Source of the DNA: Daphnia carinata
Lineage: Eukaryota
DNA length: 64,000 nucleotides
Assembly (NCBI RefSeq): GCF_022539665.2
Contig: NC_081333.1
Span: 9,300,001 to 9,364,000 of the forward strand
Reading direction: 5' to 3'
This document shows, piece after piece, positions 25,960 through 59,918 of this stretch (position 1 is the stretch's first letter; each line of letters starts with the position of its first letter). A model generated the notes under the pieces. That model was not told the DNA's origin, did not search any database, and saw nothing but the letters and a program-made list of their open reading frames with translations. The position numbers were made by a program, and so were the translations under genes.

Positions 25960-26455
25960 TTTTCTCAAAATTGGAAAAACAGCAAAGGCTATAGCCTTCC
26001 CACTTTTGCGATTTTTGGTCAAAACCCAACTTTGGCAAAAAACACATCCTTTCCATTCGAAATTAAATGAGGAACACGAAAAACAGGTTTGTTTTGAAGT
26101 GAGATCGAATATTTCTGCTGCATCGCGCTAGCGCTGTAGCGTACCGGCGTGCTAGCATTGTGTCAAATACTCGATTAAAAAAAAAAACGATTAACTTAAT
26201 GAAAAAATAGCAATTTTATCGGAATCAGCATTCAATTTTGAGTGTACCCTGTGATGTTCAACCAATTCCGGTGAGTGTCGGTTTTTGCAGAAAAAAGTTT
26301 TAAGCCCGACTAAATATAAGCCCGACTTTTCTTATTTTTTGCACGAATATTCGGTGTAATTCAAAAACGGCTAACTTGACAAGAAAACGAGTGGCTTTTT
26401 CTGAATCAGCGTTAAATTTTGATTATACTGTGGGATTTTCATCAAATTCCAATAG
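25960..26455. repeat. Diverged partial copies and subunits of the same repeat family
   Basis: AAGGCTATAGCCTTCCCACTTTT at ~25985. Two related ~90-nt blocks (GAATCAGC.TT.AATTTTGA...AATTCC...TGTC..TTTTTG) at ~26190-26287 and ~26370-26467 also resemble the end of the 321-bp unit. Confidence 0.7.
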
Positions 26456-27399
26456 ATGTCATTTTTGACCGATTTTGACAAAAGTGGGAAGGCTATAGCC
26501 TTCTCACTTTTTCATTTTTGGCTAAATCCTAGTTATGACTTTAAATACATGATTTCGATTTCAAATTGATTGAAAATCATAAAAATCAAGATGGTTTTGG
26601 CGTGGGAACTATAGTTTCTGAAATAAACGTAAAAAACGGATGAATAAAGTTGTTGCGCTAACAGCAATTGTGTTCCGTTAAGTTCCAAAACAAGTGATTA
26701 GGCAACAAAACAAATGGAATTTGAAGTCACCGTTCAATACTGATTGTACATGGTGAATATCTTTCAATTCCGAGAGATGTCATTTTTTTCAGATTTTGAC
26801 AAAAGTGGGAAGGCTATAGCCTTCTCACATTTTCATTTTTGGCTAAATCCTAGATATGACTTTAAATACATGATTTCGATTTCAAATTGATTGAAACTCA
26901 CAAAAATCAAGATGGTTTTGGCGTGGGCATTATAGTTTCTGAAAAAAATGTAAAAAACGGACGAATAAAGTTGTTGCACTAACAGCAATTGTGTTCCGTT
27001 AAGTTCCAAAACAATTAATTAGGCAACAAAACAAATGGAATTTGAAGTTACCGTTCAATACTGATTGTACATGGTGAATTTCTTTCAATTCCGAGAGATG
27101 TCATTTTTTTCAAATTTTGACAAAAGTGGGAAGGCTATAGCCTTCTCACTTTTTCATTTTTGGCTAAATCCTAGATATGACTTTAAATACATGATTTCGA
27201 TCGGAAATAGCTTGAAAATGACAAAAATCAATGTTAATTTGACGTAGGCCTTATAGTTTCTGAAATAAATGGAAAAAACGACTGAACACAATTATTGTGC
27301 TAAAAGCAATATTGATCCGTTAATTTCCAAAACGATTGCTAGATGAGAAAACAAATAGAATTTTAAATTTTCATGAAAAAATTCAGACGAAACGCGCAT
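26456..27399. repeat. Tandem repeat, ~3 copies of a 321-bp unit, each with a 32-bp near-perfect palindrome
   Basis: GACAAAAGTGGGAAGGCTATAGCCTTCTCAC starts at 26477, 26798 and 27119 (spacing 321, 321). Flanking sequence is nearly identical between copies; the third copy diverges distally. Confidence 0.95.
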
Positions 27400-27552: not shown

Positions 27553-28216
27553 GAGAGTCCTATACGAAATGCTAAACTGAATATCACAAGACCTTATATT
27601 TTCTTATCCAATTTTGAGAATGTCAACGATATCTGTGGACACACAAATCAAAAACCCTGCTTTAACAGTCCGAAATACCGAAATAGCCGATCGAGCAGAC
27701 TGCCCCCAAACAAATCATGAAATAAAAAAGAAGAAAACGTCGATAGCATTCTGGCCATAGTCAGGTACATCTGTTAAGAGTGACAAATGCACCCCGTCCT
27801 CTGTCAACTTCCTGAACATGGAACTAAACAGAAGAAAAGAATATGTTTACCTATGTGTGTGTAAGGAAAAGAATGGCTTTTATTTCGCTGAATTTTTACG
27901 GTATCTCAACCGCTACATGGAATTGTTGTCTTTCTTTTGTGGAGACGAGAAAAACTGAAGTAACTAGAAACAAAACAGAACTCATTCCAATGTCAAAGGT
28001 TTGACGATTAGCGAATATGGCAATAGAGAAAATGATTACTGATCGAACGTACATCACACGAAAGCAAGTTATAAACTATTTCTACAAGCAAGTTATATAT
28101 ATAATTATAATCGCGGGGAAACGAAAATGCCTTTCTAAAGTTAACCAGCAGAAAACGAAGGATACTTTTTTAGGATGTCATCGATATTCAATATTTGTAC
28201 TGCTGTTGCCTAGTTA

Positions 28217-31200
28217 TCAATCCTTTTTGGCCAGACTAAGACGTCGTACGTTGGGGATATCATATTCCTCCATGGACATGGCACGAGATCGTCTGCGACC
28301 AGCCTCCAAGTCTTGGGCGTCCGAGCCTGAAATTTTTTTATTTAAAAATGATGATGTTAAGCAAAAGTGGTACAAAGCTTTTATTTTGGGCTGATGTTTG
28401 GACTCACTTTGCGATGTGGTGCGACTGCGAGAGCTCCAACTTCCAGTTACCGAAAGGGAGCTCAACTTTCCAAGCCCCTGGACATAGAGAACCAAGTTGT
28501 GCGCAAACTTCTCCGGCTGGAAAAAAAAATCACACATAAAACGATTTATTTACGAATTTTCTTACGGCACTATTTCAATTGTATGCTATAAAATTAAAAT
28601 AATAGCAAGTGGAGAAAAAAGTATGTGGCGTAAAAGAATAGGATAGCCTCCCCCATTTATTCGCCTACTTGGTCAAGGAGAGGGGAGCCGAAGTGTCCTT
28701 TTAATGTAATAAAGGCCAAATTACTGACCACAAATGCTGTTGCACTCATGGTCAGCCTCATTTTCTGACACTGAATAGCCTCATATTAGGTTTCGTTTAC
28801 AGTCCTGACCGTGGCGACGAAAAGGGAGGTGTCCAGTTCGATTACTTCGACGTCAACGACGTCAGCTGTTCGCGCAAAAGTGGAAAACGAAATACAGCAA
28901 TAGCAGATGAACTTACAGCTTCCATGAGAACGTCGCCTACGCCGTCAATTAAGACGAGCGTCGATTTTGTCTTGTTCATGTGATTGGCCATGGTGCGCAC
29001 TGTGTGTAAATGAGAAGCCAAGCTTCCGGCCACCAGCATGACGTCAGTCTTGAGCTGCGACTCGAGCACTTCGCTTAAATCCGTCCGACTGCATTATACA
29101 GAGAAAATATTTAAAAAACAAAGAATTTGAATACGTTGGCTAATAATAACCAGATGAAAGCCTAGTCTTTTAAGCCAATCAAAAGAAACTGAGCCTTCGA
29201 TATCTATGTCGTACAGTCTTTGTTAGCATTAGGTAGGATTTAAAATAATACTCAAGCTGTTCCCTTAATATCACAAAGTCAAGAAGAAGGGAATAAAAGC
29301 ACCGCAAAAGACAAGATTGATTGGCAAAGAAAGAAGAAAGCCTATGCAAACCGAAAATAAAAGGACGACATGCAATCAGTTTCTGTCTGCAGTAGGTCTT
29401 CCAGTACAGCATGTTGCATCATTAAGAACACTGTCGTTTGATGCACTTGTGTACGAAAAAGATTGTGAAACAGCCATGACACACGATTCCTCCAAACTAC
29501 TTTTTCATCTCCCCATTTATCTCTTCCTTTCTTTCGTCCACATTGCCGATTCACGCCACTTTCTCGTCCTTTAGAAATATATCTTTAAAATAAAATAGGA
29601 CAGAAAAGAAAAAAAAAGAAAAGAGGAACGAATTGCATTCTCACTTCGGTGAGCCAGCAGGAGTATAAAAGAGAAGTAGCAAGCTGATTACATGGAAATA
29701 GAAAGGGCAATAGGGCGTCAATGGAATAAAAAGTAATCCACTAGCTATGCCACCCGGATCTTGTGAACGAAAAGAAAAAAAAAAGGAATTGGAAAAGACA
29801 GGAGAAGCTGGCCACTAATAGACCCTAGGGTACAATCAAAGAACGTAGTATGGTGCTGTGGTCAATACTTGAGAAAGGTCTCCACATAGCGACGCAGATT
29901 CTTTGGGTTGATCGTACTGCGCAACTTGTGCTGGTACTCCATGATAACCTTTTCTTTGTTCTCCGACCGTTCCAATTGCTAAAATTCACAAGACAAGAAA
30001 CATGAGATTCTCCCTACTAAAAATGATTACGGTATGAAAAAGACATTAAAGTAAATAGTATTTTTTTTTTTTTTTGTGATGCCCTTCCCCAGAAAGAATG
30101 CTCTGATTGAATTTTGGGTTTCTCTCCTTTTTTTTTTGTGTCTTTCTGTGAGATACTGGGTACATGGGAAAAAGATAATTTTATGTTTCTTACCTCTTCC
30201 AACGACTGCAACGCACAAGGACGTCGTTCGTAACCCATAGAGACGTCACCCCGGTGGCGTTCACGACACGCAAACAAGGAAAAAAAAAAAAAAGAAGGAG
30301 CGGCAAATGAGACAAATTATTTCATTAAATAGTTTTTTAACGACTTTTTTAGTTGACTGCAAATAATTGAAAATGTCAACACACACAAAAAAAGTAGTTC
30401 ATGGACATTTCAACAGCAAACCCACAAAAATAAGAATTACTACAGCGCTACACAAAACCTCTCCAAAAAATTGATTAGGCTTTGTTGTAGTTGATCGGTG
30501 TCGTGAGACTAAACCCTTCCATGAAAGTCTGTCACGCTCAGGCCATTAAATAGAAGACTGAGAAAGCGAAAGAAGACGCTTCCCCGGTGATGATTAAATT
30601 AACGCGACAATCATTTAAGGCTCAGACAGAAAATACTTTGCGTAACGCGACATGGTAAAGAAAATGAGCCCCCCACAAGAAATGGAAAGGCTGAAAGAGA
30701 AGCTGGATAAGTAAAAATTACGGTAACTTACACGGCCAAATTTGTGAAAGACCAAATACTGCTCGGCGGTTGGATTCATCCCGACGTTCGTCAGCTTCCA
30801 GTTGATCAGCTGGTATGCATAAAGGCCGTAGAAAGTGAAGGCGTGCGTAAAAATGAAAGGGAAATCAATTAGCCGCACAAGAGAGGAAGAATTACATTTC
30901 AAATTCGTCCGCAATTCGTTAGTTTCTCTTTAATAATGTCTTGCAATGCTTGGGTTTCCTGCCTCGTTTGACATGTCAGTCACGCACAAGTTCGTTTTCC
31001 GTTCGTTCTAAATGGAAAGCAGGAAATCTTGACGGTAAAGCCATCAAACAAAAGGACGCTGATGCAATCACTATGTATCCCAAAAGTGAAACAACAATTT
31101 AAATCCGTTTAACGGATGAAAACGGAATTTTCTTGTAAAACTAAACGCGTGCTTTTTTTCCCCGGTGGCTTTGCCGGTCATGAGAATCCCGCTGCATAAA

Positions 31201-33938
31201 AAAAAAAAACGAGTTGCGACACGACCGAAGCGCGCACGCATCGATAAACACGTACGCACCTTATCTCGAAAGTACTCCATTACGCCTGCGACGGTAGACG
31301 TGCAGTGGATCAGAATTAATCCAAGGGCGCGTTGAGGGTGATTCATGCCAAATCGAGCCAAAATATTAGCGCCGGCTCCTTCTCCAAGTCCGATGACATA
31401 AGGGATAGACAGCGAGTCTAGGACATCGACCAATCCGTGGGCGATAGTCCTCATATCGGGAAACTGGAAACTGATGGGCAAAAAGAGTTTTAAAGTCTCA
31501 CTTTTGCATTTAAGAAAAAACTTCAAAGATAAAAGTGACGGTCGATTAACTTTTTCGTTCCGGGATAGAAATGGTAAAGCGGACTTCAAACGGACAAACA
31601 ATCGCAAGTGTAGACACACGAAATCAATCGTTCTCTGTTTCACAATGCAGCACGGACGACGACGCTTTCAACCGTCACTTTGCATACAGAATATAAGCCC
31701 ATTGTAGTGTATCGAGTCCTGTATAGGGCCACTTTTAGAAAACAAAGCAAGTCTATGTGTGTGTGTGTGTGAGGTGAAGAAAAGGAGGAAAGAGAGAGAG
31801 GGAGAATAGACATACTCTTCAGGCAGGTCTAGTGCATGGTCCTCCTGACCGGGTAAGACGACGTGAACGAAGGTGGATCGCTCCTTGATGTCAGCCATTG
31901 ACGGATGATCGACAAACTTGCAGAACTCGGCATCTGTTCATTCGTTAGGGTTTTTTTTTAATTCAGGGGAAAAGATAAAACATTGAAATCAAAATCAAGA
32001 AAACATGTTGGCTTAATTTACACGATCGAATTCAGATTAAAACAGAGTCACCAGCAATTCATTACGGCCTTCGGGCCACGAATGTTTAGCAATTTACTTC
32101 GCCTGACAAATTCGTGATGCTTTAGGGAAGGCGTCTTCAGCAGAACGTTGATACGAGTAGACAGAAACGAAGAGAAAGAGAAAAGTGTAGGAAACTTACG
32201 ATTCGATCCCATATCGTGAACAGTCAGGAAAACGGGCTTGGAGTTGACATGTTGCAGCGATCCCTTTCAGCAGATCGCAGTGATATAGAATTTTTCAATT
32301 TTCATTTTTTTTTTTTTTCGTGATGTTCCGGCCGTTCCAAAGTGAAGCGAAAAAAAAAACAAGTAGAAAAGGATATATAAGTAATGAAAACAAAACAAAT
32401 CCATAACAAAAACGAGTTGTCGCAACCCACAGTGAACCATCAAAACTCTTAGTGGAACTTTTTTGTTTTTCCCCATTCTTTTTAACTGTTTTTTTTTTTT
32501 TTTTGTTCAATAATAATAAGCGGATGGGCAAGGAGAGAGGGGTGTGAGCAATTTCTGTAATCATTACGAGAGCTAAGGGAAAACGCGTGCCCCGCTGGCA
32601 AGATGATTAATCAATCACAATGAGCTTCTGCCCACATGTTCACGACTCAGGAGAAAAACAACCAGTCATTTGCTCTTCGACAGACGTAACCGCCGTCCCT
32701 ATTTTCGTTCTACTCTCTCCGATAAGTTGAGAAACATTTTATTTCCCTTTTCTTTTTTTTTGTTTTCAAAAAGTTTCTTTTAATGATTCGTATTTCCTGT
32801 TCATTTCCCTCCATACAAACCCAAACTTTGCGGTGCAAAACGTTGTTGTACTTGGATATGGACAGTCAAATTTCCGCAGTTGCTGGTACTGACGATCCTC
32901 TTCTGTACAGGCTGTAAAATGAAATGTTCCAAAATATTAGATATTTGCCATCGATTGTATACTGGATAAACATCGGAAAGAAGCTCGGTGTTTTGTTCTG
33001 CTATTTTAGTTATTTAAAAAATATATTTGGACTGGGCTGGATTCGGTCCAAAAACAAAACGAAACGAACATAAACCGATCAAGCGTGATAGGCGAGGAGA
33101 AAGCGCCACAAACCGCTGTGCACAGAGGATCGATACTAAACCCATACTGAAAAAAAATGTGCTTTTGTCCGTCGTCAAAAGCGAAAAATGAATCATAAAC
33201 TACGCGTAAATGGGAGAAAGCTAAACACGATAAATCTAAAAAGATTGAGAAAAAATGACAAACTAATGTACTATTATTTTCATGAGGGGGAAAACGACTA
33301 TTGGGTGATAGCACTAAAAATAAAGCAATTCCACCAATGGCCTGATCACTGATTTCCTGTTGTACGATTGTCAAGCGCCAGCTTCCACCAGCCGAAAATC
33401 TATTACGTTGATAACACGATTTTAAAAAAGGGGAACAAGCAGCATTGAACAGTAAGGATCATGTCGAAACTACTTAACGACATTAACTACTCGCAATAGT
33501 CTGATAAAAAAAACTGTATGCATTTTTCGTGACAACTGAGAACTTGCTCTCGTGCGGGTGAACCAACAACTGCATAAAAATTGCACCCTACAACATCACT
33601 TCTCTAGATAGCGGGAAGGGTACAGAAAAAGATCGCGGATTGACCAAAAACAAGAAGGGCACAACAAATATCAACTTGCTCAATCCTTAAACACAGAGAC
33701 CGTTTCTTAACGCGTAAGAAATTCTGATGGACATGTCGGAGATTTCCCACAGATCAATCATCTATCTAAATCCGGTTTGGAAAATTACTTGTACCAGCCA
33801 AACAAAACAAAAGAAAAAACAAAACAAAAAAGAAGATAAAAAAACAAAAAAACAAGTATTGCTTAAACTTAAAACTATGACCTCTGCACTGTCGACGTGC
33901 ACCGCGTCGCCGTTCTTAAAACGGCCGTCTGTCGCCAT
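28217..33938 (-). CDS. MESK2: NDRG-family alpha/beta-hydrolase-fold protein (MESK2 / ZK1073.1 type), proximal-start isoform; exons 33938-33882, 32911-32852, 32263-32200, 31933-31816, 31470-31260, 30809-30732, 29978-29869, 29088-28917, 28516-28408, 28326-28217
   Basis: Phase-consistent splicing gives CGNLTVHIQG...VFLTVHDMGSNH, FVHVVLPGQED, VIGLGEGAGANILARFGMNHP..LGLILIHCTST, YLVFHKFG, INPKNLRRYV, GVGDVLMEAPEKFA and RAMSMEEYDIPNVRRLSL. The first exon MATDGRFKNGDAVHVDSAE is less certain than the rest. Confidence 0.9.
30194..30205 (-). CDS. MESK2: Candidate 12-nt in-frame microexon (SLEE) of the NDRG gene
   Basis: TTGCAG|TCGTTGGAAGAG|GTAAGA; phase 0-0 matches the flanking exons (KFGR|QLER); long AG-free zone upstream. 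Confidence 0.65.
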
Positions 33939-36900
33939 GATATTGCGGACTAACAGCACCGATTGAAACTTTGAAACGCCACTTGATCGCCCAACAGCGG
34001 CACTGCACACACCAGCGACACACAAAAAACTCAAATATCTAAATAGGCAAATATTTGGAGGAAAGAATGTCTTCCTTTGCGAAACCAACGTTGACGGTGG
34101 AAGCTCCGGAGAAAGACTGGATCGGTGGGTGCGATCCTTCTAGTGCTCTCTCTCTCGTTATTGCAAGCCTTTTGTTGGAGGACAGGAAAAAGAGACCCTC
34201 GGAGACAGCGCACGCTCCCCTATCGATTTGCACTGAGCCACTTGGCGTGGAGTAGAGAACCTTAAAAGTCTCGTTTCCAAATAGCAAAATAAAAAGAGGA
34301 CGCAGAATACGAATCCTACATTGATAACTGACGATAGATAGTTAAGTCAGTTGACCCATTTGAGTGTCGACGTGCGGGTTCTGTTACGGATAAGTGTGAT
34401 GTCTGCGGACGTAAATGGTAAATATCTTTTTTGGAAGGAATAACAAACTTTTCTTTTTTGTGTGTGTAAAAAAAAAAAAAATCAACCACATCGCTGTCAT
34501 TGTCATGCAGCGGATGTTGTACACACACTGAAGAGTCTCCGAAGTCGATACGACTCGCGCTAAGGGAATAGATTTATTTTTGATTTCCTTGTAAGTTCTT
34601 CGGAAAAATTCTGCACTTGAATTGCACGATTTTCATTTCCAGTAATCACACCGGGGAAATACGAACACTCCAGATGCGAAGTACTATATCTCGTTCAGTG
34701 TGCTTAGCCACAGGGCTGAATATGAGGGTCACAAACGTCAATGCTTCGATTGGCAAAAACTGCTCCGCAAACTCGTTTCGCTGCCATGTTTTTCTACCCG
34801 AAGGAATTGAGCAAAAATTGTTGACTGCAAATGAGACGGTTTTCAGGGCAACACAGCTTCATTAAAAACAGGCGTCCAATGTCCCGTTAACCCAACAACC
34901 GAAGGTTAATTATTCTGAGTCAACGATATCGCTGATATCAAAGGTATACTCGGTCTTATCAAAACACCCTTCAACGTTGGATGTACCTCCCACGTAAATG
35001 TTCATAAAAGCACGCGCACAACTAGTCTCCCCCGTCGTTTTTAACGAACGCGAGAGAGATTAAAAACGATCTATCCCGGTGAAATTGACGCTTATTCGTT
35101 GGCGGATATTTTGGCCAGCTTCAATTTGCCGTGGTGTTGTGTTATTAATCGCGCAATCGACGGGGAGGGAGATATACACGAACCCCCTTTTCCGTCCCGC
35201 GTGATAATCGCGAGGAACAAATTAGATATGAACTCAATTCGCCATTACGTACGTAACCCGGTGATCCGGTGTCGGTTAGCAACTGGAGGAAATAACAATG
35301 GCGATAGATGAAAAGCACGTTGTTCGAAAAGAATTCATTTTTTTTAATACAAGGGGAGATTTCCGACGCACTAGATGGTCGGATCTAATCGATCCGTCCA
35401 GTTTCACGTCGTGCTGACCGCCATCAAATTCTGGGAATAAATAGAGTTTTTTATTGTCCGTATATTTTTACCCGCTTTTAAAAAAAAAAGGAAATTACAT
35501 CAAAGGGAACTCCCTTTTTACCGCTGTTGTTGACGTGCCGGGCGGATTGCGATTGGAAATGGTGGAAGAAGAGGAACACAGTCACTCGAAAATGTTGTTG
35601 ACAAGACGGCGATACGCTTTTATTTTATTTTTTTATTTATTTATTTTCCATTTGGATGGGATACGTGGGCAGGAAAGTATAGAGCCGAGCAAGTAGCGAT
35701 CCTATCTTCAAGCAGTGTGCAACTCATTCCGGAACCTCCAGTCCGGAAGAAAAAAGAATTAATACATTTTGAACAATGGATGTGTACACAGTGCTTTTTA
35801 CTTAAAGATGTTTAACAGAGCAAAGCAAATAACGAAATACACGTTGCCCCCTCACGATGATAAGTTGATATTGCGCAAAAACACAAGAGATTGTGAGGAG
35901 AGGGCGGTGGATCGATATCAACGAGTCATTGCCATCGGGTTTAGCTTGAGGGCTATATAAGAATTGCGTGCGACTTTAGCCGTCTGCCTTCCCCGTAAAG
36001 TTTTATCAGAGCAACGCAGAAAGAATGGAAAGATTTTTCTTTCTTTTCTGGAAGACATCGCCAGTTTTGAATGTGGGACGTGAGGCCTAGCTCTAGGTCG
36101 ACAAAATCCGGAATGGTCCGCCGCTGGCAGCCTTGATGAGATTGTTAATCCTTAGTTAAATCCGTAAGGGATCTTTACAAGACGGACACGGATACAGAGA
36201 GACCGAGGAAAAAGATAGACTACACAAATTCCGGAAACCATGTCGTGGACAATTTTTCTTGATAATTTGTCACTTTGAATTTAGTTTTTGTGTGCGCTTA
36301 TCAACCATCGATTTTTCTTTCGTTTCGAATTGTAAGAATAAAAAGATACCACCGTTTTCGCTGTTGAATCCAATTGTTCACACCCGTTGGCGGCAAGTTT
36401 CGACTGCGAATGCAACACGCAGATGGAGCCAAGGTATATCGATTTCACTCCAGTATAACGTTCCAATGCCTGTCGAAACCTTTTATTTTTTCCCACGTAT
36501 ATTCCAATGTGTCGTCTACGTATAAAACAAAAAAAAAGTCCGATAAAACATAATATAGCATTCCCGACAGGTCCACGCTCGGGAGTCAAAGAGTCCAATC
36601 TCCATCAGTGCTGTCTGTTTCGATATCTAAGAAAGAGCCGCTATAAAGGGAAATGTGTTACACGAAAAGAAATAAAAAACGAGCTTATACGTTTAGGCTT
36701 GAAACAGGAAGACATCGCGAAGACGTTGCAGAAATGGATTGTGTAAATCAATCGAGACGGTGCGCGTCCTTTCTTTTTTTCCTTGACTTAATCGTCGCAT
36801 TGTTAAAAGGGGGGAAAAACACACATGGCTTTAAGGAGAAAGCAAACTATACGTTGTCGAGCCCAATCGGTCGATCATGTTGTCAAGATGATGGGGCACC

Positions 36901-39900
36901 GAAAACAAAAAAGAAAACCAACCGCCATTGGCTATGATAGTTCACGATTTCTCGACAGACTAGTCCTTTTCACGAGATCAGCAATTTGAGCGTCCGCCTT
37001 CGTACAGCGTTAAACAATATCGGGTTGTTATTTTACCTTTCCACCTGCAACAACGCAAACAGACAATAGTGAGCCCCATTGCAAACAAGGAACGGACCCT
37101 GTTATTATCCCTTATGTTCAATCCTTCTTTTATTCCGACTCGCATTGACGGTTGGGCAGCTCTATTCTTCCTGTTTCTGCGTTATTGGCAACTGCACGTT
37201 TGTTTTGTATGGCTTGTATATAGCTGCAGGAGAGGACGAACGGGACAAGTGCGTGGAACCAGTCGACAGACAACCACAAAAGAGTTTGTTTTGAAAGCGG
37301 TAAAACCGCACCGGCGGCGGGGTGGGACCTCACCTGGAATCGTAGGGCGTTGCGAAATTTGTTACGGCCGTTATGTTTTGTATTTAGAAAATAAAACGCA
37401 GTTTTATGTGGGGGAGGTCTGAAACTAAACCAGGACAATTAGCTTTTTCTTTTCGTGTCACCCTTTTTTTTTTTTCTATTTCTCTATAGTTTGAAATCTG
37501 CAGCCTATTTTGATGTCCTCGTATCGTTTAAAACGCTCGTAACGACCGTTCAAAGTAAGTGGCAAAACAAGCGGCTTAAAACTTTCTCCCATGGCAGTCA
37601 AGGAAAAAGTAGCGGGCTTCTTAATTGATGATGCTATCGCATTATTTACTTTTTTTTTTCCCCTTCGATGCGGCGGCTGAAAGAGAAATAAAAGGAACGG
37701 ATTAATGAGATTCTAATATGATAACCTTGGCCCTTTTTTTTTTTTTTACATTGTTTGATTTTGATCGTTTGGTTTGCTGGATCTTCTATTAAGACGTGGG
37801 ATTTTGTTTTTCAAACTACGATCGAAGAAAGACATCTAGCGTGCAGTCATCCAACTCTCGCTCACCTGGAATTGTTACGTGAAAAAAAAAAAAGAAAACA
37901 AACAATACAATAATAAATTCAACTTTGTCCGTAAATGTCAGACATTCCCCCCCTTTTCGCCATTCATTCCCGGATAATATCGTGAATGGCATGGAACGTA
38001 AGCACCGCTTCCACATAAACCCATTTTTTTTTCATGTCGCTATCTTCCTTTTTCGCCATACTTCACTGTTATTACCATTCTTTTTGGGCAAAGTTGTTCG
38101 ACTAGCGTGCGGTGTTGTCTCGCTCGAAAGAAAACAAAACGGAGGAGCCATCAGACAATCCCCCTGTCGTCCGATAACAGGCTTGGACATCAGATGATAA
38201 AAACAAAACGAGGAAAAGAAAAGAATCCGTTAAAGAATAAGAAACGCACAAATGTACACGACGTATAATATTCGTTATAATTGCGTATCTTCTTATGCCC
38301 GTCTTCTCGCACAGTAGGAGACAAAAGAACTGCGTCCGGGAAACGTATCTAACCTTCCAATTGCTTTATTCCATTTTTTTTTAAATCGTATTGTTACCCC
38401 TCCATTATTATTATTTTTTTTAGGTTGACGTATGGTATTCAAAGGTCAGTTCGCTATAAATTTCATCGCTTCAATCCCTTTTTCGCTTTCATTCTTATGC
38501 AAGAGATTGTGTTACATACATTAGCCACACTTCGGCGTAGGCTATCGTGTTCGAAAGGTCAGTGGAGGAAAAGAGGATCACAACACGCAGAAAGAAGAAC
38601 AGACTTGCGTCTATTCTTTTATATGTATATGTATGGAGGTTTCATATGCAAAAGAGAGGCAGAGCTGTTGATTTACATTCCCACAATGCCTGGGCACACG
38701 CACGCAAGCCGTCATTCCCAGTCTATAAATATATATGCGATATATATACTGATTCTGTGCGTCTGTCTTCAATAAATGTTATATTCAGTGAGTATGTAAA
38801 TCTGATGGGAGTTTCCTGAAAAAAAAAAAAACGCTTACATACATCAAAGTCCATTCATCACGCACGCTTTCTTGATGTCGTTTGGCGTTGATGTCAGGGG
38901 AGGAGTTTTAATAGTTATTCATATCTTTACCTTAATTCGATATTATTATTATATTTTTTTTACTTTTGATAATTTAAAAAAATGTTTTTCGCAAAAATGA
39001 AAAGAAAATATCGTGGTTTATTTACGTGCGCGTTTTCTTCCGCGTTTTTGCGCAGGCCAAGAATCCGTTTCACGCGTTACGCCTCGCCTACCAGTCAGAC
39101 CACCATCCCGTGCCATCGTCAATAAATATTTCCCAAAACAAAAAGCCAAAAAACTACAAATAATAATAATAATAGTTAAAAGAAGAAGTGGGGGAGGCAT
39201 CTCCTGTTTTCTTTGTGTGTTTTGTCTTTATGTTTCCTTCAAACGTTTCGATTTCCAATGCTCATCTTTTAACACACACATATTCCCACGGTTCGTTTGA
39301 TATTTCTTTGTGTGTGTCTGGCGAGCTCACACACGACATCGTATGCTGATTGTAAACAAGGAAAACCTTAAAAAGTTAAGGGACAAACACACAGAGAAAG
39401 AGAAAGAAACGGTGATGGTGCCATATACGTAGAAAATATAGTAACCCCAACACAAGAGACAGGTATATCACGTTGTCCAGGTAAAAGAAAAAAAAAAAAA
39501 AAGGCAATTGCTTTGGGGGGTTTTTCTCTCCCGTTTGGCTGGACATGACGAATGGCCGCGCGAGCGCGCAACCGCTCGCGCGCTCCTCGTTTGGTTCCTC
39601 CGTTAAAAAAAAAATCGGAAAAAAATAAATAAATAAAATAGAAAAAGGAGGAAACAGTTGAAGGGGATATACCCAGGTTGCCTGGACCATGCCTCTGCGC
39701 CAAAATAGGGGAAGGGAAAATTTATAATGCAAAAGAAACGACTGTTGTGTACGTGTTTATATATATGGCCTGGGTCTTTTCGTTTTCGAGGGCGGGCGAG
39801 GCAGAGTGTTTCTACCCGAATAGTTTGGTACGCACGGCGGTTGTATACAATCATTTGCTGTGGGCCTCATTTTCAACGTTTTGATTGAAGGCTAAAACAA

Positions 39901-39908
39901 AACAAAAC

Positions 39909-39941
<33 letters not shown>

Positions 39942-42900
39942 CAGCGATCCAGCTGTGTGTTAGACGGAATTACTGCGTTAGTGTTTTCCTTGTATTTCTT
40001 TTTGGGTTTCCCCTTGCGTTTGGCTGTCAGGACAAATTTTAACGAAGATGAAAACAAACGAAAACGTTTCTTTCAACTCCTCCCCCGTTTTCTCTTTACA
40101 GACTTAACGAATCGTTCCCTTTAAAAAGGAGTCTTTTAGCGTCTTCTTCTTTTTCTTTTAAGAAAAAGGTATAACCACGGCTCCCCCCCCCCCCTTCTAT
40201 ATAAGCCGGCAAACTTTTTTGATGCTCTACCAATTAAGCAATTGGCTATAGTTTAACCCCCCACTAACTATTGCCTCCATGAAAGTCGATATGAGAATCT
40301 TCTTCGTCATAAAATAAAAATGTGGAAAGGAAAAAAAAAAAAAAATTTATAATTTAAGATGTTAAGTGTGGGAAAATGCCCCCTCTCTTCCAACTGTCGG
40401 AGTCGATAAGTCCTAAAGGCTATTATCCCCCCCCCCACTCCTCAAGAGCTTAATGATGGATTCATTTTAAGGTATTTTTTTTTTTTTTGTAAACATTTCT
40501 ACATAGAGTAATTTTCGAACTTAATGATAAGGTACAATCAAAATATAAAAAAAAAACACGATGCCTTGATATCGAACGCTCCTGTTTGCGTTTGCTATTT
40601 TTAAAGCCAATGGAAAGAAAATCGTTGGAAAATGTTTTTTTTACGAGCGAAAAGAAACGTGAGAACTATTTCAACAGTTGCAGTTTACGTGTCTACCATA
40701 CAATTTCTTTGCGTGTCTCAGACGAAATGAAAGAAAAATCCAAAGTCTTTGGGAACAGCACAAATGCCAAACTCCAATAAAAAAAAAAAAACGGTGCCGC
40801 ATTCTGGCGTGGACACGGCCGATCCGTCGCCATCGTGCCATTGCACGTTTTCCTTTTTCTTACAAAGTCAGGGTCGGAGCGCAGGATTTATGGAACAACT
40901 TTTGCAGGGAAGGGGGGGGGAGGGGGTGTTGACGTGCCATCGTTGTACGGCGTAAATCGGCTTATTGATATAATGCCGCGTGTAAGATATAAGACAATAA
41001 TCCCCGTAGAAGAAAGGAGAGTCATCGATAACCATTGGTTGTAGCGGGGGAACTTCATCGAGCTAATTGAACCCTCATCACAGATGAGAAACTCGTGAAG
41101 CCAGCGATTTCGTTCACGTCGACGAGAGAGAGAAAAAGAAAACTTTCCCTGACAGTTGATGAGAAAATGATTGAAACCGAATCGAATCGTGTCTTCACGG
41201 GTATACAACACTTGGCGTGTAACGGCTATAAGATGCATGTGTTTTAAAGATCTACGACGTGCCTTTTTCAGGTTCTTCACACACAAAAAAAAAATGAATT
41301 CTTTTCATCGTTTTATTTTTATTTCTTTTCGCGGCTTACAATAAAAGCCACGTCTCTTTCCCTCAAGAAATAGGTTTTACCTTTAAGCAAGAGAAGAATA
41401 AAGGTGAAAGGGGAGAAAACAACAAGAAAATATTATTCCATCTTTTTTATATTATGAAAAAAAGAAAAAAAAAGACAAAAAATTGGTTAGATAGACCTCC
41501 TGGAGTGCGGAAGCTACTAAAGGATAAAGAAAGATGGAAGGGAATAGTTACACACAGACGTGTGTGATGAACCCGACCCAGTGCGCCGGTTAATGCCATG
41601 TGACGTTGAGGATTTTTTTTTTTTACATCCCGTTTTTATTATTATCATTTCGATGCTTATTACTTTGGTCGTCTTATAGTCATCTTATGGTCGTCGGGAT
41701 AGAAAAAGGCCGCATGTCATTATTTAGTTTAATGTAGTATTAAAATATGACGATAAAGGAGGGGGGACATTGTTGAGTATTCCATTGGTGTGTAAAGAGC
41801 TTCGAGTTTCGACGGCCACGGGCAATCGTTTCAACGCGTACACGAGATTTGATAAAAAAAAAAAAAAGAAAAACTAAATGCGTGATTTTATGTCAATTAT
41901 AGTGTCGGTTTAAAGTTAGCGAGATCATCTTTATCTGTTGGTACCAGGCAACAATGTAAAATTGATGACGTAGATAAGAAATTATTCGTGCGGCCGAGCG
42001 CGTGATTCGAAAACCAAATGAACCCGAAATTTCGGAGGCAAAAAAAAATTCAAAAAAAAAAAATATAATGAGAATAATCGTTGGAGTAGGTGGTGGCGGG
42101 TGTACATATTTTTAATCGAAAATTGGGAAATAAAGAATAGCTGTTAAACAAAACAAAAAAAGAAGCAGGTGAGAGATACAGCAAAAGGAAACGGGACGAT
42201 GAAATTCGAACTGATGCCTTGCAAGAAGGGCGGCGTCAGACCGAAAGAAAAAAGAAAAAGGGATGCCATAATAACAATAAAAAATAGAAAATAAAAAATA
42301 AATGAAAGAAGAGACGGAAGATGAAGCTGAATGGTCCACACCTGTGGCACATTTGCATATAATACAAGAGAAAGAAAAAAAGACGGTCCTTATTTCGTAG
42401 CTTATGGGCTGAACGGCGTGGAATATCTACCGGACAAATCAGCATCAAGTCAGATCTAAATATTTTTTTTTTTTTTAAAGGAATAAACATTTAACGAAAA
42501 AAAAAAAAAAAAGGACGGACTCTTTGACACTGTTTTCCGTTTACCGAAAGAAAAAAAAAAACATTCTCCAGCGTTTTATAGACGTGCGTGTTAAATGCAA
42601 TTAAGGATCGGATTCATCACGCAGTACGACACAAAATGTTTTTCATTTTCGTTTTGTCCACCACCAATAACACACCTGGATGATTTGACTTTCTCATCTG
42701 GCAACCCCCCCCCCCCGTCTCCCGTCTCTCAGCAACACCCTCCACGATGCAACCCCTGCGGACACGATTCACCTGGAATCGTTGCAACTCCGTTTTCGAA
42801 AAAGGCTATAAAAGAAAAAAAAATAATATAACACGACCGAAAGAAAAAGGGGGACACGAGACAAACGTTGTCGTTTTTGGGAAAGTTTTCTTCTTTTCAC

Positions 42901-45900
42901 GTTTTTTTTTTTTTCTGTATGTCGCCCTAGGTTGGAGGAGAGAGAAAGAACAGAATTATATCCCCCCCCCCCCCCCCCCCCCCTTTTTGTATCCGTTGTG
43001 TGGACAAGAATGAAATTCGAGTATTTCACCGATAAGTTTAAACTGCCGCCAAGCCTTTTTTTTTTTTTTTTTTTTATTAAATAAAATTGATGTGCAAACG
43101 ATGACGACCGCGCCCTCCTGCAGTGAAACCAACACACAAAAAGAAAAAGTCGTCTGGAAACCCACGTCCTTTCTTTTTTTGTTGTTGTCCAGGTGCGCTT
43201 CAGACAAACTCACCTACATCCAACCCTATTGTAGATAGATGTTGTGTCCCCCCACCGACCGGTGTAAGGAAACATGGAGCGTTTAGGAAAAACAAGGAAA
43301 GAAGACAAAATAAAAAAAAAGGGCAAAACAATTTATGGAAGTGGGCGAAATTCAAAAAGAAAATGTTGTCGTCATCCAGACATGTTCTCAACCCCCGTAG
43401 TCTTTAATTCTCGTATTCGTTTGTAAAAAAAAAAAAAAAAAAAAAGAGAAACAATGAAAAGGGGTGGTTTTCTTACCTATTATAGACGCACACATATGCA
43501 CGGAGGAACACAATAAATCGGCCATTGGCGCCACGTCGTTTTTGCTGGAATTTCTTTTTTTTTTTTGTTTTTTTTTTGGTTTGGTTTGTTTCTTTCCACT
43601 GTCTAAGGAGCGGCCTTTTTGCCAGTTGAATATCTCGCGACTGAAGGGATTTTTTTTTTTTTTTTGTCGGCCGCTGCGTTGTCGTTTTTTTTTTCTGGAA
43701 CATAATTTACTGTTTATATCCATTAAAGATATCTGGCAGACGAGTATATGTTCGGCAGCAAATGATAATATGCAAGAGACAAAAGACGACGAGAATGATT
43801 CGTAAAAGAGAGACAAAAGTGAATGAATTTTGAATTTTTTTTTTTTTTTTTTGGTTTGGGGGGGGGGGGGGGGTTTTCAAAAAAGTACCGGTCATTAAGT
43901 TGCCATTAGCGTCGCTCGTTAGGGCCAATGAATATATTGAAGGAGAGAGAGAGAGAGAGACAGAGAAACAGAAAACGGAATTCTTTTTATTTTCAAGGAT
44001 ATTTTCTCTTTTCTTTTATTCTTTCTAAACGAAATAGAAGACAATAGTTCCATACCTAGCGCGCCATTACATTATTTGCGCTTCTCACAATTGCTGTCTG
44101 TACCCGGTACTGCACGCACCTGCGATCATTCCTCTCCTTTTTTTTTTTTTTTTTTGCCATCGATAATAGGATGGGCCTTTTGTTCCTCCCGCGTGACTCT
44201 GTTTCGAATCATCTGAACGACGGATAAAAAAAAAAGAACCGTTTCTGAATTATCAGTCGGCCTTACGGAACGAGTAACAACACCTTCCCTTATCTCCTTC
44301 ATTTTAATCCGTTCGCTTTCAAAAAGAAATTAATTTTTTTTTGTCCTCCCTTGTGTTATAGCAACTCGAATCAAGTCGGTTGCTGCAAGGCATTCGAGAA
44401 GCCTCGTCTTCTTTTAATATTTTCTTCGATAGCAATCATGATGTTGGCCGGCACGCAACCGCACAGTCACGGATTCGCTACGGTCGCTCACTCACGGTCG
44501 GTTCTTGTTCCCTCCATTTTTATTTCCTATCTTTTGAGTCCCGTACGAGAAAGATCAACGCGCAGAGTCAGCTGGCCGAAACGTTAGACATTTACTGGAA
44601 CGGTATGGCAAGTTTTGAGGGCAAAAATTGATGAAGGATAAACGTCTGAATTTTCCTTTTCCATCTTCCCGAACAAGAAAAACAGTGGGGAAATTCATTT
44701 TTTTTTTATTTCCTCCCATATTCATCGGTCAATTATTTTACATCTTTCTAAAACCGAGTAAGAAGAAAAAGGGAAGTTATATTTCCCCTTTTTAATTTAC
44801 GACGTGATTATTTTTCTTCCAACGTCTGCTTCATGGGACGTGTATGATGTAATAAGCTTATAACCAAACATGTGAATAATAGGGTAAAAAAAAAAAAGAG
44901 GGTAAGCAAGAGATCTTATACCATTAGGGGAAGAACAAAAAATTAATGGAGCCATTTGCTCTGCCATGCTAAAAGGGATGCATATTGTTAGCAAAGAGAA
45001 TCTTGGGTGGGTAGTAACCACGATGTGTGGCCTTTTTTTTTTTTCCTTCTTGTTTAAAAGCAACAGCAGCTAAGGAACGACTTCAAAAAAAAAACAAAAA
45101 AAACACCGGCAATAAGCTGGACCTTTGGGCCAGTTGGGAAATGAATCAGTGACGAGAGCGGGGGGTTCAAAAATGATCAAAAAGGAGACCGAAAAAAAAA
45201 AAAAAGAAGTTGACATTTTTTTTTTTTTTTCTCTCTCTTGTTTGTTCCAGACAGTTAAGGTCAGAAGGGCGGTTTGTGTTTATGTCCCTTGTACGTCTTA
45301 GGCCTACCTATAGATTCTCTTAGACCTGGAAGGGCGGAGACAAAAAACAAAAATGTCCTCTAAACTTTTAGAGAAAAATTTTTTTTTTTTTTGAAAGGTA
45401 AGAAGGATTTTTTTTTTAACACTATATCTTTCTCTTCCATCGTTTTCCTGCGCTGTTCTTATCTGTTTTGAGCCTTCAGTTTCTATCTTTTTTTTTTCAG
45501 AGGAAAAAGAGCTCACGAGCCGACTCGCTGCTGTCTACACAATCGACGAAGGTGTTCCAGTCTACCTTTTTTTTCTGCTCAACACCTTACTTTTTTTTTT
45601 CCTTTCATGGCGGCTTTTTGCTTGTATCCCTCTAAATGCGCAAGGTAAATGGAACATTCCAATTGCTCCCTGTTAACACACACAACAAAAAATTTCCCCA
45701 GCTTCTAACTTGAATGCATCTCGGCTATTCTTATTCTCCCAGCTTATTTTTTACGACCCATTTTTGTTTTGTTTTCAGCTGGTGGTGCGCCCTCCAATCG
45801 GCCGGCCATTTCAAAGTGGGTGTGCTGCTGGATCGAATAGCCGCCCCTGAAAACAAAATCCAATGAAAAAAACAAAACAACACAAGTATAGAAAACAGAG

Positions 45901-46546
45901 ATGTATATACAATCTGTATGCCTACGTACACATATATCACCGAGAATGGAAATAAAATGGGCGAAAAGCGCCAACAGGTAGAAGAAGAAGATTATGGGCG
46001 GTTGTTTTGGAACGGCCTTTTCTTATTTTCCTTTAGAAAAACAAAAAATATCTACGTACATTTACGAGCTTCCTTTCCGATAAGGGTAAAGGATTGTTGG
46101 CACACAGCTGGGACATAACAGCACACATGTCGCTCTCTTGATTGTCTAACACAACTTTCAAATATTTGTTGTTTTTTTTTGTTTTTTTTTCTGCATTTTG
46201 AAAGGCTTCGCTTAATTGGTGGAATTCCTCGTCAAAAGGAATTTCCTTTGGCAAGACGTGGGCGAGCAGATGACCGTGAAAGATTGTCCTTAAAAAGACG
46301 GGCAATAGCAAAAAGAAATGTCGGATAAAAAAAAAAAAAAAAAGACAAGGAAACATCCAGCTGGTGATCGTTAATTAACCCGTTTAGATGTTGAGGAATT
46401 TTTGCTTGTCAAGAAATAAGTAAGAAGAAAAAAAAAAAAAAAAAAAAAGAACTTCTAAATGGAACATTCATTACAGTCGATTGGGCGTTGATGACCATCA
46501 GCTCCGACGTCATCTTCTTCCACTGGAGGAAATCTCCGTTTTATGC
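31891..46546 (-). CDS. Overlapping alternative-frame ORF over the NDRG N-terminal exons (5' end not identified)
   Basis: The -1 frame is stop-free through exons 46546-46475, 32911-32852, 32263-32200 and 31933-31894, ending at TGA 31893-31891 (~78 codons visible). Confidence 0.55.
43214..43225 (-). other. Candidate 12-nt microexon (GGTTGGATGTAG) in the long NDRG intron
   Basis: Consensus donor TAG|GTGAGT, acceptor AATAG, and ~160 nt upstream with no AG dinucleotide. Confidence 0.5.
46475..46546 (-). CDS. MESK2: 72-nt distal exon of the NDRG gene: contains an alternative NDRG start (ATG at 46513, MTSELMVINAQST) and is fully open in the -1 frame (xIKRRFPPVEEDDVGADGHQRPID)
   Basis: Acceptor TTCTTCCTTGCAG|G, donor ACT|GTAATG. 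A GC-balanced island in A/T-run intron sequence that joins in phase 0 to PVQKRIVSTSNCG. Confidence 0.7.
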
Positions 46547-57400: not shown

Positions 57401-59918
57401 TCCATTACGAAGCATATCATAATATACGATGGGCGGGGGAGTCTTTGGAACGATTTTCAAGGTGACGTCATTTGGCGTAGCGTAGCGTAAACGTACCGTG
57501 AAATGAGGAAAAGTTCTTTCTTTTTTATTTTGTTGAATAGCTTTAAAAAAAAAAGGAGTCTGTTATGGGCACTTTCACGACGTTTTACCCTTCGCTGAAT
57601 CTTTTTTCAATGAAATTTTTGAGGAATGACGTCACGTCTGCACGTTAGGCATCCAGTATTCAAGGTCTGTAATAACACCAGGCGCCATGTTTGAAGCAAA
57701 AAACAAAAATTATAATTATTTATTATTATCTAGAAAAAAAAAAATGAAATAGAGTCACGAAATATGATGAAGGAAAATAATGCTAGTTATTGCGCAAGAG
57801 CCTCATAGGCATACAACGCAGAGTTCAGTAGCTCAAACCTGCCGCAAGGAGATTTCTCTTCGAAACCAATTGTTTTCTCGTGATTCTTTGAACTTAACAA
57901 GCCTACCAAAGCCAGTTTGACCCTAATAATGTTTTAAAAAAAACGTTGCTTCTTCTTCCCGCATTTGCCTGTGTAAAGAATACAACGGCAAACGATCATG
58001 GTGAGATTCATCAGTGAGCTGCCGGATTTTTTAATTTAAATTGTTTATCACCAAACAAAATCCGACCGTTATTTTTGTCCGTATTTTTTTTTTCTTGCCA
58101 TTTTATATTATTTTCAATCCAGTAAAAAAAAAAAATATTTTAAAAAAGGGGACAAACAAAATGTGCATCCGGGCGGTTCCTATGTCGTGGTTTCGTAGCG
58201 CGTTTATGTACCTGTCGGCCATGAATAATCTAGAAGAAACAAAAGAATAATCCAAATGAACCGGATAACCCCCCTGACAAAAACCTGTTTTCCTTTTTTT
58301 TTTTTTTCCCTTCTTTGAAATCCATTCCCCACCCACCATATTTCTCCCTTTTTGCCTCAATGGCATGTGATGGTAGATGGGACAGGGCCGACATGAACAT
58401 TTGTTTCGGACACACTCTTCCTTATTTTTTGTTATTTTTATTTTTTTTTAAGTCACTCAAAAAAAGTTGAAGAGCGAAAAAGATAACCCGAATGTCCGGT
58501 TGAAATCAACGTTTGAAAATGACCGACTTCCGTTTTGGCTTGCGGACAAACTGCTGTGCAACGTTTGCGGCCATACTTGATTATATACACACAAAACCTT
58601 GGAACCAATTTATTTTATTTGAATAGAGACACACAAAGGCGTACTTCCTTTCTCCCCCCCCCTCTCTTCGATGGCTGTTCAGAATAAAAAAAAAAAAAAG
58701 GGAAATGAAATTGTAGGAAATGAGACAAGGCCACTTTTGGCATTTAATTGCTGGGTTTTCTTATACTGCATCCCGCCCATCAGCGTTTTTCTAGAAAAAA
58801 AAACAACAAACCCAAGCCAAAAAAAAAGTTTTGGATGGTTTTATTGTTTCCTCCCTTTTTTTTTTCTTTCTCGCGTTTTGAAAAAAAAAAAAGAATTTGC
58901 GGGGATTTTAACAAGATTACAATCAACCACAGCAAAAAAAAAAAAAATGCTGATGCAGAACTCGCGTAGTTCATTGAACGAATTAGATCCACCTCAACTT
59001 GCACCGCATATAAGCACGCCATCACGAAGCCGGCCACACTTGTGATAATAATAATTTAGGAAAAGACTGGACTACGCGTTAACTCTATCAACAAAAAAAT
59101 GGTGGGAAAATGTGTCGAACAATTCGAAAGAAATTAAAATGTAAGCAACAAGAAATTTATCATTTCTAGCTTAAAAAAAAAAAAGAAACGAGAAAAAAAA
59201 ATATGGTGATTAGAGCCGTGCAGTGCGTTGGGTTTCAACGCGTCACGAATATTCGTTTGGATACGCTTCGCCTGTTTCTTTCGTCGCCATCACATCATCA
59301 CGATCAATCAATTAAACTTTTTTCTTTCTTTCTTATTTCTTTTTTCCTTTTTGTTGTATAGGTAGAATGAAATTCTATTCGGGACCGTGAGTAAGCGTGC
59401 CATTTATATCGTCCCTTTTCTTTCTTCAACCAATCAGAAAAAGAAAAAGAATTCCAAGAGAATTTATTTTAGAAAAAAAAAAAAAAGAAGTTGTTGACCT
59501 TCTTTGACACAAGCGAAATGACTGCGTCCTTTTTTGTTATAAAGAAAAAAAAAAACAGATAGACATTTAAGATTTAAAAAGAAAAAGGGACGCGAAAATA
59601 TGATTCGTTTTGTTGGTTCAACGGTACATCTCAGGTGGTGTACCATCGTGGCTGTGTTTTCGTGTCACGAGGGCGAGCGGGACACTCGATGCGCATCATC
59701 ATATTCATGAGAGAGAGAGAGACGCGCATTTCTTTGGTGACCAATCGCCTCTAGTTCGGTCCGAATGTAAACCGGTACTCGCCATTAGAGGAGTAGTTAA
59801 ATAAATACGACTATTTTTGACTCTGAGAAAACAGAAGAAGAAAAATTTAAAGATGGCCCCGTCTTTGATTTGGAAAAATATATGTTTCTCTCGGTCTATC
59901 CATCTCTCTCACACTCAC

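What the first reader, a model, noticed from the sequence alone, without database searches (positions are those of the whole stretch)
43214..43225. 12-nt microexon that would be poison for NDRG but in frame for the overlapping protein
Seen: a consensus TAG|GTGAGT donor, an AATAG acceptor and a ~160-nt AG-exclusion zone (43228-43386) define GGTTGGATGTAG. Inserted between exons 46546-46475 and 32911-32852 it reads GGT TGG ATG TAG (stop) in the NDRG frame. In the -1 frame it reads W-L-D-V-A and stays open. Inference: a splicing switch that shuts off the distal-start NDRG isoform while keeping the alternative-frame protein; its frame-specific openness is consistent with the dual-coding model.
Basis: partly seen in the sequence, partly recalled or inferred. 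Interest (0 to 1): 0.72.

Follow-up and report, generated by a model that had tools for sequence, protein, structure and literature searches.

The report
Candidate stop-carrying microexon in water-flea gene
A 12-letter stretch in a long intron of a water-flea NDRG-like gene has splice signals laid out like those of the gene's other skippable exons and is likely a tiny optional exon that would cut one predicted gene version short, but no RNA evidence was obtained and the proposed second, overlapping protein is not supported.

Summary
The sequence facts hold: AATAG acceptor, 12 nt, TAG|GTGAGT donor, 159-nt AG-free zone, and a stop in the NDRG frame. The window is a Daphnia NDRG/ZK1073.1-like gene. 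The element is the only 3-30-nt YAG..GTRAG unit with an AG-free zone of 100 nt or more in 25.5 kb of sense intron (16-25 of 150 shuffles reach one; one antisense locus). Its far-upstream pyrimidine tract mirrors exon 4 and the gene's real 12-nt SLEE microexon. So a real microexon is about an even bet; inclusion was not tested on RNA. Dual coding is not supported: the other frame has no Met in 78 codons, two longer open runs lie elsewhere in that frame, it is broken in 2 of 5 orthologous loci, and synonymous sites vary normally among Daphnia-type loci. 'Stop here, open there' occurs in 9 of 63 control 12-mers. Best reading: an ordinary candidate poison microexon of an unconfirmed distal isoform; a chance pseudo-exon is nearly as likely. 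Side finding: exons 5-8 look mosaic with another crustacean's sequence.

The parts
43214..43225 (-). Candidate 12-nt cassette microexon; Gly-Trp-Met-stop in phase 0; contains an ATG-TAG start-stop
   Evidence: Sequence; acceptor weak (rank 561 of 1179 AG), donor rank 61 of 1316 GT; inclusion not shown
43228..43386 (-). 159-nt AG-free zone with a pyrimidine tract about 140-40 nt upstream of the acceptor and a purine-richer last 40 nt
   Evidence: same profile as exon 4 (zone 180) and the SLEE microexon (zone 136)
43208..43213 (-). 5' splice site GTGAGT
46475..46546 (-).
   Evidence: Most coding-like spot of the intron; donor weak (rank 390 of 1316); no protein record found
34090..34481 (-). Proximal first (non-coding) exon; 5' end approximate
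   Evidence: Contigs of 3 of 4 runs join 34090 to the next exon
33882..34038 (-). Proximal start exon, ATG at 33938; start of the annotated main isoform
   Evidence: Spliced CDS equals RefSeq protein P0119; joined onward in 3 of 4 runs
32852..32911 (-). Exon 3, first shared NDRG coding exon
32200..32263 (-). Exon 4 (64 nt), weak acceptor with long AG-free zone; holds the internal ATG of the annotated 310-aa isoforms
31816..31933 (-). Exon 5; the other frame stops about 40 nt into it; letter-identical to another crustacean's exon
30194..30205 (-). Real 12-nt in-frame microexon (SLEE); internal positive control
   Evidence: Present or absent in homologous proteins; letters seen between exon joints in contigs; conserved in L005

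Best explanation
This is likely a real but mostly skipped 12-nt microexon in the long 5' intron of a Daphnia NDRG-like gene, which would put a stop 16 codons after the start of a predicted distal isoform and so would switch that isoform off, with no second protein involved. Shown: the splice motifs, the AG-free zone, the stop, and the likeness to exon 4 and the SLEE microexon. Inferred: that exon A is spliced and translated, that the acceptor is recognised through the distant pyrimidine tract, and that inclusion turns the distal frame into a short upstream ORF, followed by decay or restart at the exon-4 ATG.
For: Only such unit in 25.5 kb of sense intron; over the whole window the same filter (zone of 100 or more) returns this element, the real SLEE microexon and one antisense locus. 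Pyrimidine profile matches exon 4 and SLEE; exon 4's zone is long in 3 of 3 orthologous loci too (104-138 nt). Exon A is the top coding-like spot. The family uses several short alternative N-termini and optional small exons at this position in flies, locusts, amphipods and other crustaceans. The fly gene CG2082, the inferred orthologue, has an eMIC-sensitive 9-nt microexon (PMC8797185 table S2).
Against: No RNA or orthologous DNA covering the element was seen. It lacks the UGC, UCUC and CUAAY motifs typical of fly eMIC exons. A looser scan shows no strand excess (5 against 5). About 262 donors in the intron pair with acceptors at scores as good as exon A's, 51 of them with an open in-frame ATG (antisense 212 and 38). 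None of 174 stored proteins starts with exon A's peptide. The optional exons of relatives at this position are coding, not stop-bearing.
Confidence: 0.4

Rival explanations
1. Chance pseudo-exon: an AG near a good donor at the end of a low-complexity U-rich stretch, never or only noisily spliced.
For: 11-17% of shuffles give a hit under the generic filter and the antisense strand has one; 8 of 451 sense and 8 of 475 antisense YAGs have zones of 100 or more; weak acceptor and no branch consensus.
Against: Zone of 150 or more plus AG|GTRAG plus a multiple of three is rare in shuffles (0-4 of 150 for either filter); zones of 150 or more occur 3 times on sense and never on antisense; the profile matches two real exons.
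Confidence: 0.33
2. A real microexon that lies in the 5' UTR: distal transcripts would be non-coding up to exon 4, and the 12 nt would only add an ATG-TAG start-stop element that tunes translation.
For: D. magna, D. pulex and D. pulicaria each have an annotated 310-aa isoform starting at the exon-4 ATG, so transcripts without an upstream in-frame ATG are on record; no record has exon A's N-terminus.
Against: Exon A has two in-frame ATGs, the first with A at -3, and looks coding-like. The 5' ends of those annotated transcripts were not seen.
Confidence: 0.14
3. The donor is real but the 12-nt exon is not: TAG|GTGAGT would be a recursive-splicing ratchet point or the end of a longer or first exon.
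For: AG|GT junction in a 13.6-kb interval, within the size range of fly recursive introns (10.1101/006163); three ratchet-like TTCCAG|GTGA sites lie further down the same intron.
Against: No TT at -5/-6 (196 of 197 fly ratchet points have it); the second AG scores lower than the first and has another AG 10 nt before it.
Confidence: 0.08
4. One reading: a switch that removes the distal NDRG isoform while keeping an overlapping protein in the other frame.
For: The other frame is open to the same codon in the window, L006 and L007. RefSeq models of D. pulex and D. pulicaria read exon 3 in that frame from an upstream ATG (P0113, P0115). Synonymous divergence in exons 3-5a is lower than downstream in the four pairs with L001 (p 0.007-0.093, uncorrected) and across four taxa (17 of 34 against 43 of 60, p 0.045).
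Against: No Met in 78 codons; runs of 81 and 67 codons elsewhere in that frame exceed the 66 here. Stops in L005 (codons 6, 36) and L001 (codon 40); no synonymous depression among window, L005, L006 and L007; other-frame identity 18-22 of 37 against 30-34 of 38 for NDRG. The D. pulex models skip exon 4 and return to the NDRG frame, and their first exon has no match in the window. Only two repeat-protein hits among 1.84 billion representatives.
Confidence: 0.05

Closest known systems
eMIC/Srrm234-regulated neural microexons of arthropods (10.1101/2021.02.24.432780; PMC8797185), including the 9-nt exon of fly CG2082 and this gene's SLEE exon
   Same: Tiny length, weak 3' splice site, long AG-free zone, host gene family known to carry microexons
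   Different: No UGC near the acceptor, no UCUC tract, no CUAAY; strong donor; carries a stop instead of coding residues; regulation untested
Poison exons and poison microexons (PMC8605326 passage; BAK1 example in 10.1101/2025.11.26.689062)
   Same: Inclusion would bring a premature stop
   Different: Frame-preserving length with a stop at codon 17 of a predicted alternative N-terminus, so it may act as an upstream ORF instead of through decay (inference); would hit one promoter's isoform only
Dual-coding genes and multiphasic exons (GNAS1, XBP1, INK4a in PMC1868773; 269 fly gene models in PMC4528330)
   Same: An open second frame over coding exons; D. pulex models read exon 3 in two frames
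   Different: Here 234 nt, without its own start, broken in 2 of 5 loci and with free synonymous sites among Daphnia-type loci
Drosophila ratchet points (10.1101/006163)
   Same: AG|GT in an intron over 11 kb
   Different: No TT at -5/-6 and no pyrimidine tract next to the AG

Membership tests
eMIC-dependent microexon | 3-27 nt with weak 3' splice site | tested here: met
   12 nt; acceptor rank 561 of 1179
eMIC-dependent microexon | Long AG exclusion zone | tested here: met
   159 nt
eMIC-dependent microexon | UGC near the 3' site, UCUC-rich tract, CUAAY branch point | tested here: not met
   0 TGC in the last 60 nt, 0 TCTC/CTCT, no CTAAY in 170 nt; SLEE has 2 TGC and 3 TCTC/CTCT but no CTAAY either (features)
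eMIC-dependent microexon | Neural inclusion that depends on Srrm234 | not testable with these tools
   Needs tissue RNA and knock-down
Poison exon | In-frame premature stop on inclusion | tested here: met
   Stop in phase 0, conditional on exon A being translated
Poison exon | Included in mRNA and raised by NMD block | not tested
   No reads were laid over the element
Poison exon | Conserved in relatives | tested here: inconclusive
   No exact 22-nt match in metagenome contigs; orthologous loci too short
Dual-coding gene | Second frame longer than chance (500 nt in PMC1868773, a mammalian and conservative threshold) | tested here: not met
   78 codons; third-longest run in that frame of the CDS
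Dual-coding gene | Second frame open across species | tested here: not met
   Open in window, L006, L007; stops in L005 and L001
Dual-coding gene | Own start codon | tested here: inconclusive
   No Met in exon A to exon 5; possible upstream ATG exons are at chance level (56 sense, 45 antisense donors)
Dual-coding gene | Suppressed synonymous change in the overlap | tested here: inconclusive
   None among Daphnia-type loci (p 0.55-1.0); lower in pairs with L001
Ratchet point | TT at -5/-6 before AG|GT | tested here: not met
   AT at these places (rule)
NDRG / ZK1073.1-like family (host gene) | Ndr domain PF03096 and homology | tested here: met
   108 of 108 hits carry PF03096; CDS equals P0119

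The most novel reading that the evidence does not exclude
One microexon toggles a Daphnia-specific dual-coding transcript: it ends the distal NDRG frame while an overlapping protein of about 80-90 residues, started from an upstream exon and open in all three Daphnia-type loci examined, is still made.
Probability: 0.05. Interest if true: 0.7.

Novelty: new member of a known kind. Interest (0 to 1): 0.22.

Why it matters
If real, it adds one unannotated stop-bearing microexon, and a distal isoform, to an uncharacterised NDRG-like gene whose fly counterpart marks R8 photoreceptors (PMC9751288). It would be a small test case of promoter-specific shut-off by a microexon in a crustacean. That is modest. 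Only the unsupported dual-coding reading would surprise a specialist. The mosaic exons 5-8 matter for anyone using this gene sequence or the identical RefSeq protein.

Tried and rejected
No whole genome is held. Run search: no RNA holder listed on record; 24 runs with word shares of 0.05-0.07, guessed RNA. Contigs of 4 of these 24 were laid on 27700-42200, which holds neither the microexon nor exon A; no joint or loose end from a distal exon was listed at 32911, but 5 joints and 181 loose ends were not shown and the contigs come from relatives, so this is no evidence. Exact 22-nt motif in metagenome contigs: 0 hits. Related loci: 7 of 210 candidates confirmed, none reaching the distal intron. 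Exon A in the NDRG frame: 3 candidates, none scored. Other frame: two repeat-protein artefacts and no usable Atlas hit. D. pulex first-exon peptide: no match in six frames. Coding model: cannot tell frames apart on short exons, as true exons 3 and 10 score higher in the wrong frame. Earlier findings: nothing in 4 look-ups. CG2082 not found in 12 supplementary files of PMC4528330; file 1 was not searched. One GCLC exon is 97% identical to D. magna, so it shows no mosaic.

Full report
Setting. The finding lies on the minus strand in the long 5' region of an NDRG-family gene. All 108 homologues of one exon carry PF03096 and the best are Daphnia ZK1073.1-like proteins. Eleven exons from ATG 33938 to stop 28216 translate to exactly the RefSeq protein XP_059350503.1, labelled D. 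carinata (P0119). Contigs of 3 of 4 public runs (guessed RNA, from relatives) join a proximal first exon ending at 34090 to the start exon and on to exon 4. The annotated main isoform therefore starts downstream of the candidate and is untouched by it. The fly counterpart is likely CG2082: fly hits are annotated together with exocyst component 4, and CG2082 lies immediately 5' of sec8 (PMC1326216, passage).

Observation. All stated letters and coordinates are right. In the 25.5-kb sense intron 59900/60000-34500 it is the only YAG + 3-30 nt + GTRAG unit with an AG-free zone of 100 nt or more. Block shuffles reach one such hit in 25, 18 and 16 of 150 runs; with AG|GTRAG in 3, 0 and 4 of 150; with a zone of 150 or more in 1, 0 and 3 of 150. 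The stricter thresholds were chosen after seeing the element. Over the whole window the generic filter also returns the gene's real SLEE microexon (30205-30194) and one antisense locus at 59362. A looser matrix scan, trained on only 28 partly orthologous donors, gives 5 acceptors on each strand. The best argument for reality is architecture: pyrimidines peak far upstream and drop over the last 40-80 nt before a weak AG, as in exon 4 and SLEE. Against it, the UGC, UCUC and CUAAY motifs described for fly eMIC exons (10.1101/2021.02.24.432780, passages) are absent. Neither RNA inclusion nor conservation could be seen: the one read-laying that returned covered only 27700-42200, the motif had no exact match in metagenome contigs, and the seven related loci end short of the distal intron.

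The distal exon. The poison reading needs exon A (46546-46475). Its splice scores are ordinary: about 262 donors form pairs at least as good, 51 with an open in-frame ATG, against 212 and 38 on the antisense strand. Its composition is not ordinary: a 72-nt window at 46532 is the most coding-like of 2111, although the exact exon is matched or beaten by 38 windows and the model cannot tell frames apart. A 13-residue alternative N-terminus fits the family, which has several short first exons and optional small exons here in flies, locusts and crustaceans. No protein with this N-terminus was found (weak search; 0 of 174 stored proteins). D. magna, D. pulex and D. pulicaria instead have annotated 310-aa isoforms that start at the exon-4 ATG. 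These fit either non-coding distal exons or exon A plus a stop.

Dual coding. The other frame runs 78 codons from exon A into exon 5 and has no Met. Upstream exons that could supply one are at chance level (56 sense, 45 antisense donors). In that frame the CDS has 9 stops in 366 codons and open runs of 81, 67 and 66; the proposed overlap is the third. Across five loci it is open to the same codon in the window, L006 and L007, and broken in L005 and L001. Synonymous differences in exons 3-5a against downstream: 16/44 vs 33/77, 17/45 vs 29/77, 6/48 vs 9/91, 15/40 vs 34/76 and 16/41 vs 33/76 for the Daphnia-type and L005 pairs. The window-L005 pair (13/43 vs 10/87) is distorted by the mosaic below. 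Against my reading, the four pairs with L001 are lower in the overlap (p 0.007, 0.025, 0.055, 0.093; four-taxon 17/34 vs 43/60, p 0.045; uncorrected), but L001 itself has a stop there. D. pulex exon 3 matches the window in 16 of 17 NDRG residues and 10 of 16 other-frame residues. RefSeq models P0113 and P0115 do read exon 3 in the other frame, then skip exon 4 and rejoin NDRG: a multiphasic exon of the common kind (269 fly models, mostly without proof of function; PMC4528330, passages). Searches with exon A's other frame gave only two repeat proteins and no Atlas hit. The 500-nt chance threshold for mammals (PMC1868773, passages) is not met, though XBP1 and INK4a are shorter too. The frame-specific openness is weak evidence: 14 of 63 control 12-mers ending at AG|GT stop in phase 0, and 9 of 63 also stay open in the other frame.

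Mechanism. Most likely (0.40) a low-inclusion cassette whose weak acceptor is defined from the distant pyrimidine tract and the strong donor. On distal transcripts it would end translation after 16 codons, leaving decay or restart at exon 4; the proximal isoform would be unaffected. Every step after the sequence motifs is inferred. A chance pseudo-exon (0.33), a 5'-UTR microexon with an ATG-TAG element (0.14), a ratchet point or longer exon (0.08; fails the TT rule of 10.1101/006163, passages; background PMC8605326, passages) and the dual-coding switch (0.05) are the rivals.

Known context and novelty. Fly CG2082 has an eMIC-sensitive 9-nt exon and a 6-nt exon (PMC8797185, supplement rows) and marks R8 photoreceptors (PMC9751288, passages). 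Poison microexons are known (BAK1; 10.1101/2025.11.26.689062, one passage). The listings for CG2082, ZK1073.1 and microexon plus Daphnia (titles and abstract starts only) showed nothing on this element; the library lacks most subscription papers. At best this is a new member of a known kind. Interest 0.22.

Caveat on the sequence. Exon 5 (118 of 118), the last 141 nt of exon 6, and exons 7 and 8 (76 of 78, 106 of 110) match metagenome locus L005, a more distant crustacean, while exons 3, 4 and 9 are 77-81% identical and introns do not align. Ten residues in exons 5-8 follow L005 against D. magna, D. sinensis and D. pulex; contigs of relatives differ from the window at 30-31 of 211 letters in exon 6 but at 1-2 of 110 in exon 10. 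An assembly mosaic is the likely cause (inference); one GCLC exon shows none. The other frame's stop lies in this stretch, but L006 and L007 have it at the same codon, so the conclusions stand.

Noticed in passing
window 29869-31933 (minus), against L005: NDRG exons 5, 6 (3' part), 7 and 8 are 96-100% identical in DNA to a more distant crustacean while other exons are about 78% and introns unrelated; 10 residues follow L005, not Daphnia species. Likely an assembly mosaic, also present in the identical RefSeq protein; real exon-only transfer is the unlikely alternative.
   Followed up: partly
window 42772, 37865, 37333 (minus): Three ATTCCAG|GTGA sites on the sense strand of the long intron, all with TT at -5/-6 like fly ratchet points. 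TTNCAG|GTRA: 3 seen, mean 0.19, 0 of 300 shuffles; looser TTNYAG|GTR: 4 seen, 8 of 300. Candidate recursive sites or donors of unannotated exons.
   Followed up: partly
window 42773-42805 (minus): Candidate 33-nt in-frame exon with strong acceptor (rank 3 of 1179), good donor, 82-nt AG-free zone, no stop in the NDRG frame; resembles the optional small exons of relatives at this position.
   Followed up: partly
window 30194-30205 (minus): The 4-residue SLEE microexon position is shared across crustaceans, locusts and a horseshoe crab; decapod proteins show two different 4-residue inserts, suggesting mutually exclusive microexons.
   Followed up: partly
window 32200-32911; proteins P0113, P0115, P0116: D. 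pulex and D. pulicaria RefSeq models skip exon 4 (or 3 and 4) and read exon 3 in another frame; exon 4 has a long AG-free zone in all four genomic loci.
   Followed up: partly
window 59918 (minus): Best-scoring donor of the region (CAG|GTGAGT, rank 1 of 1316), possibly the end of a far-distal first exon.
   Followed up: no
window 43711-43732 (minus): A second long AG-free zone (180 nt) 500 nt upstream of the candidate, before a possible 22-nt exon.
   Followed up: no
window 26445-27337: Tandem repeat, 321-nt unit, 2.8 copies, 90% matches, downstream of the NDRG 3' UTR.
   Followed up: no
protein P0122: A protein nearly identical to penaeid shrimp NDRG-like proteins is filed under a Gammaproteobacteria genome, likely host contamination.
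   Followed up: no
window 1-25000: Neighbouring genes: glutamate-cysteine ligase; from recall of the translations, also MEGF8/attractin-like, an organic anion transporter, eIF5 and kinesin light chain.
   Followed up: no
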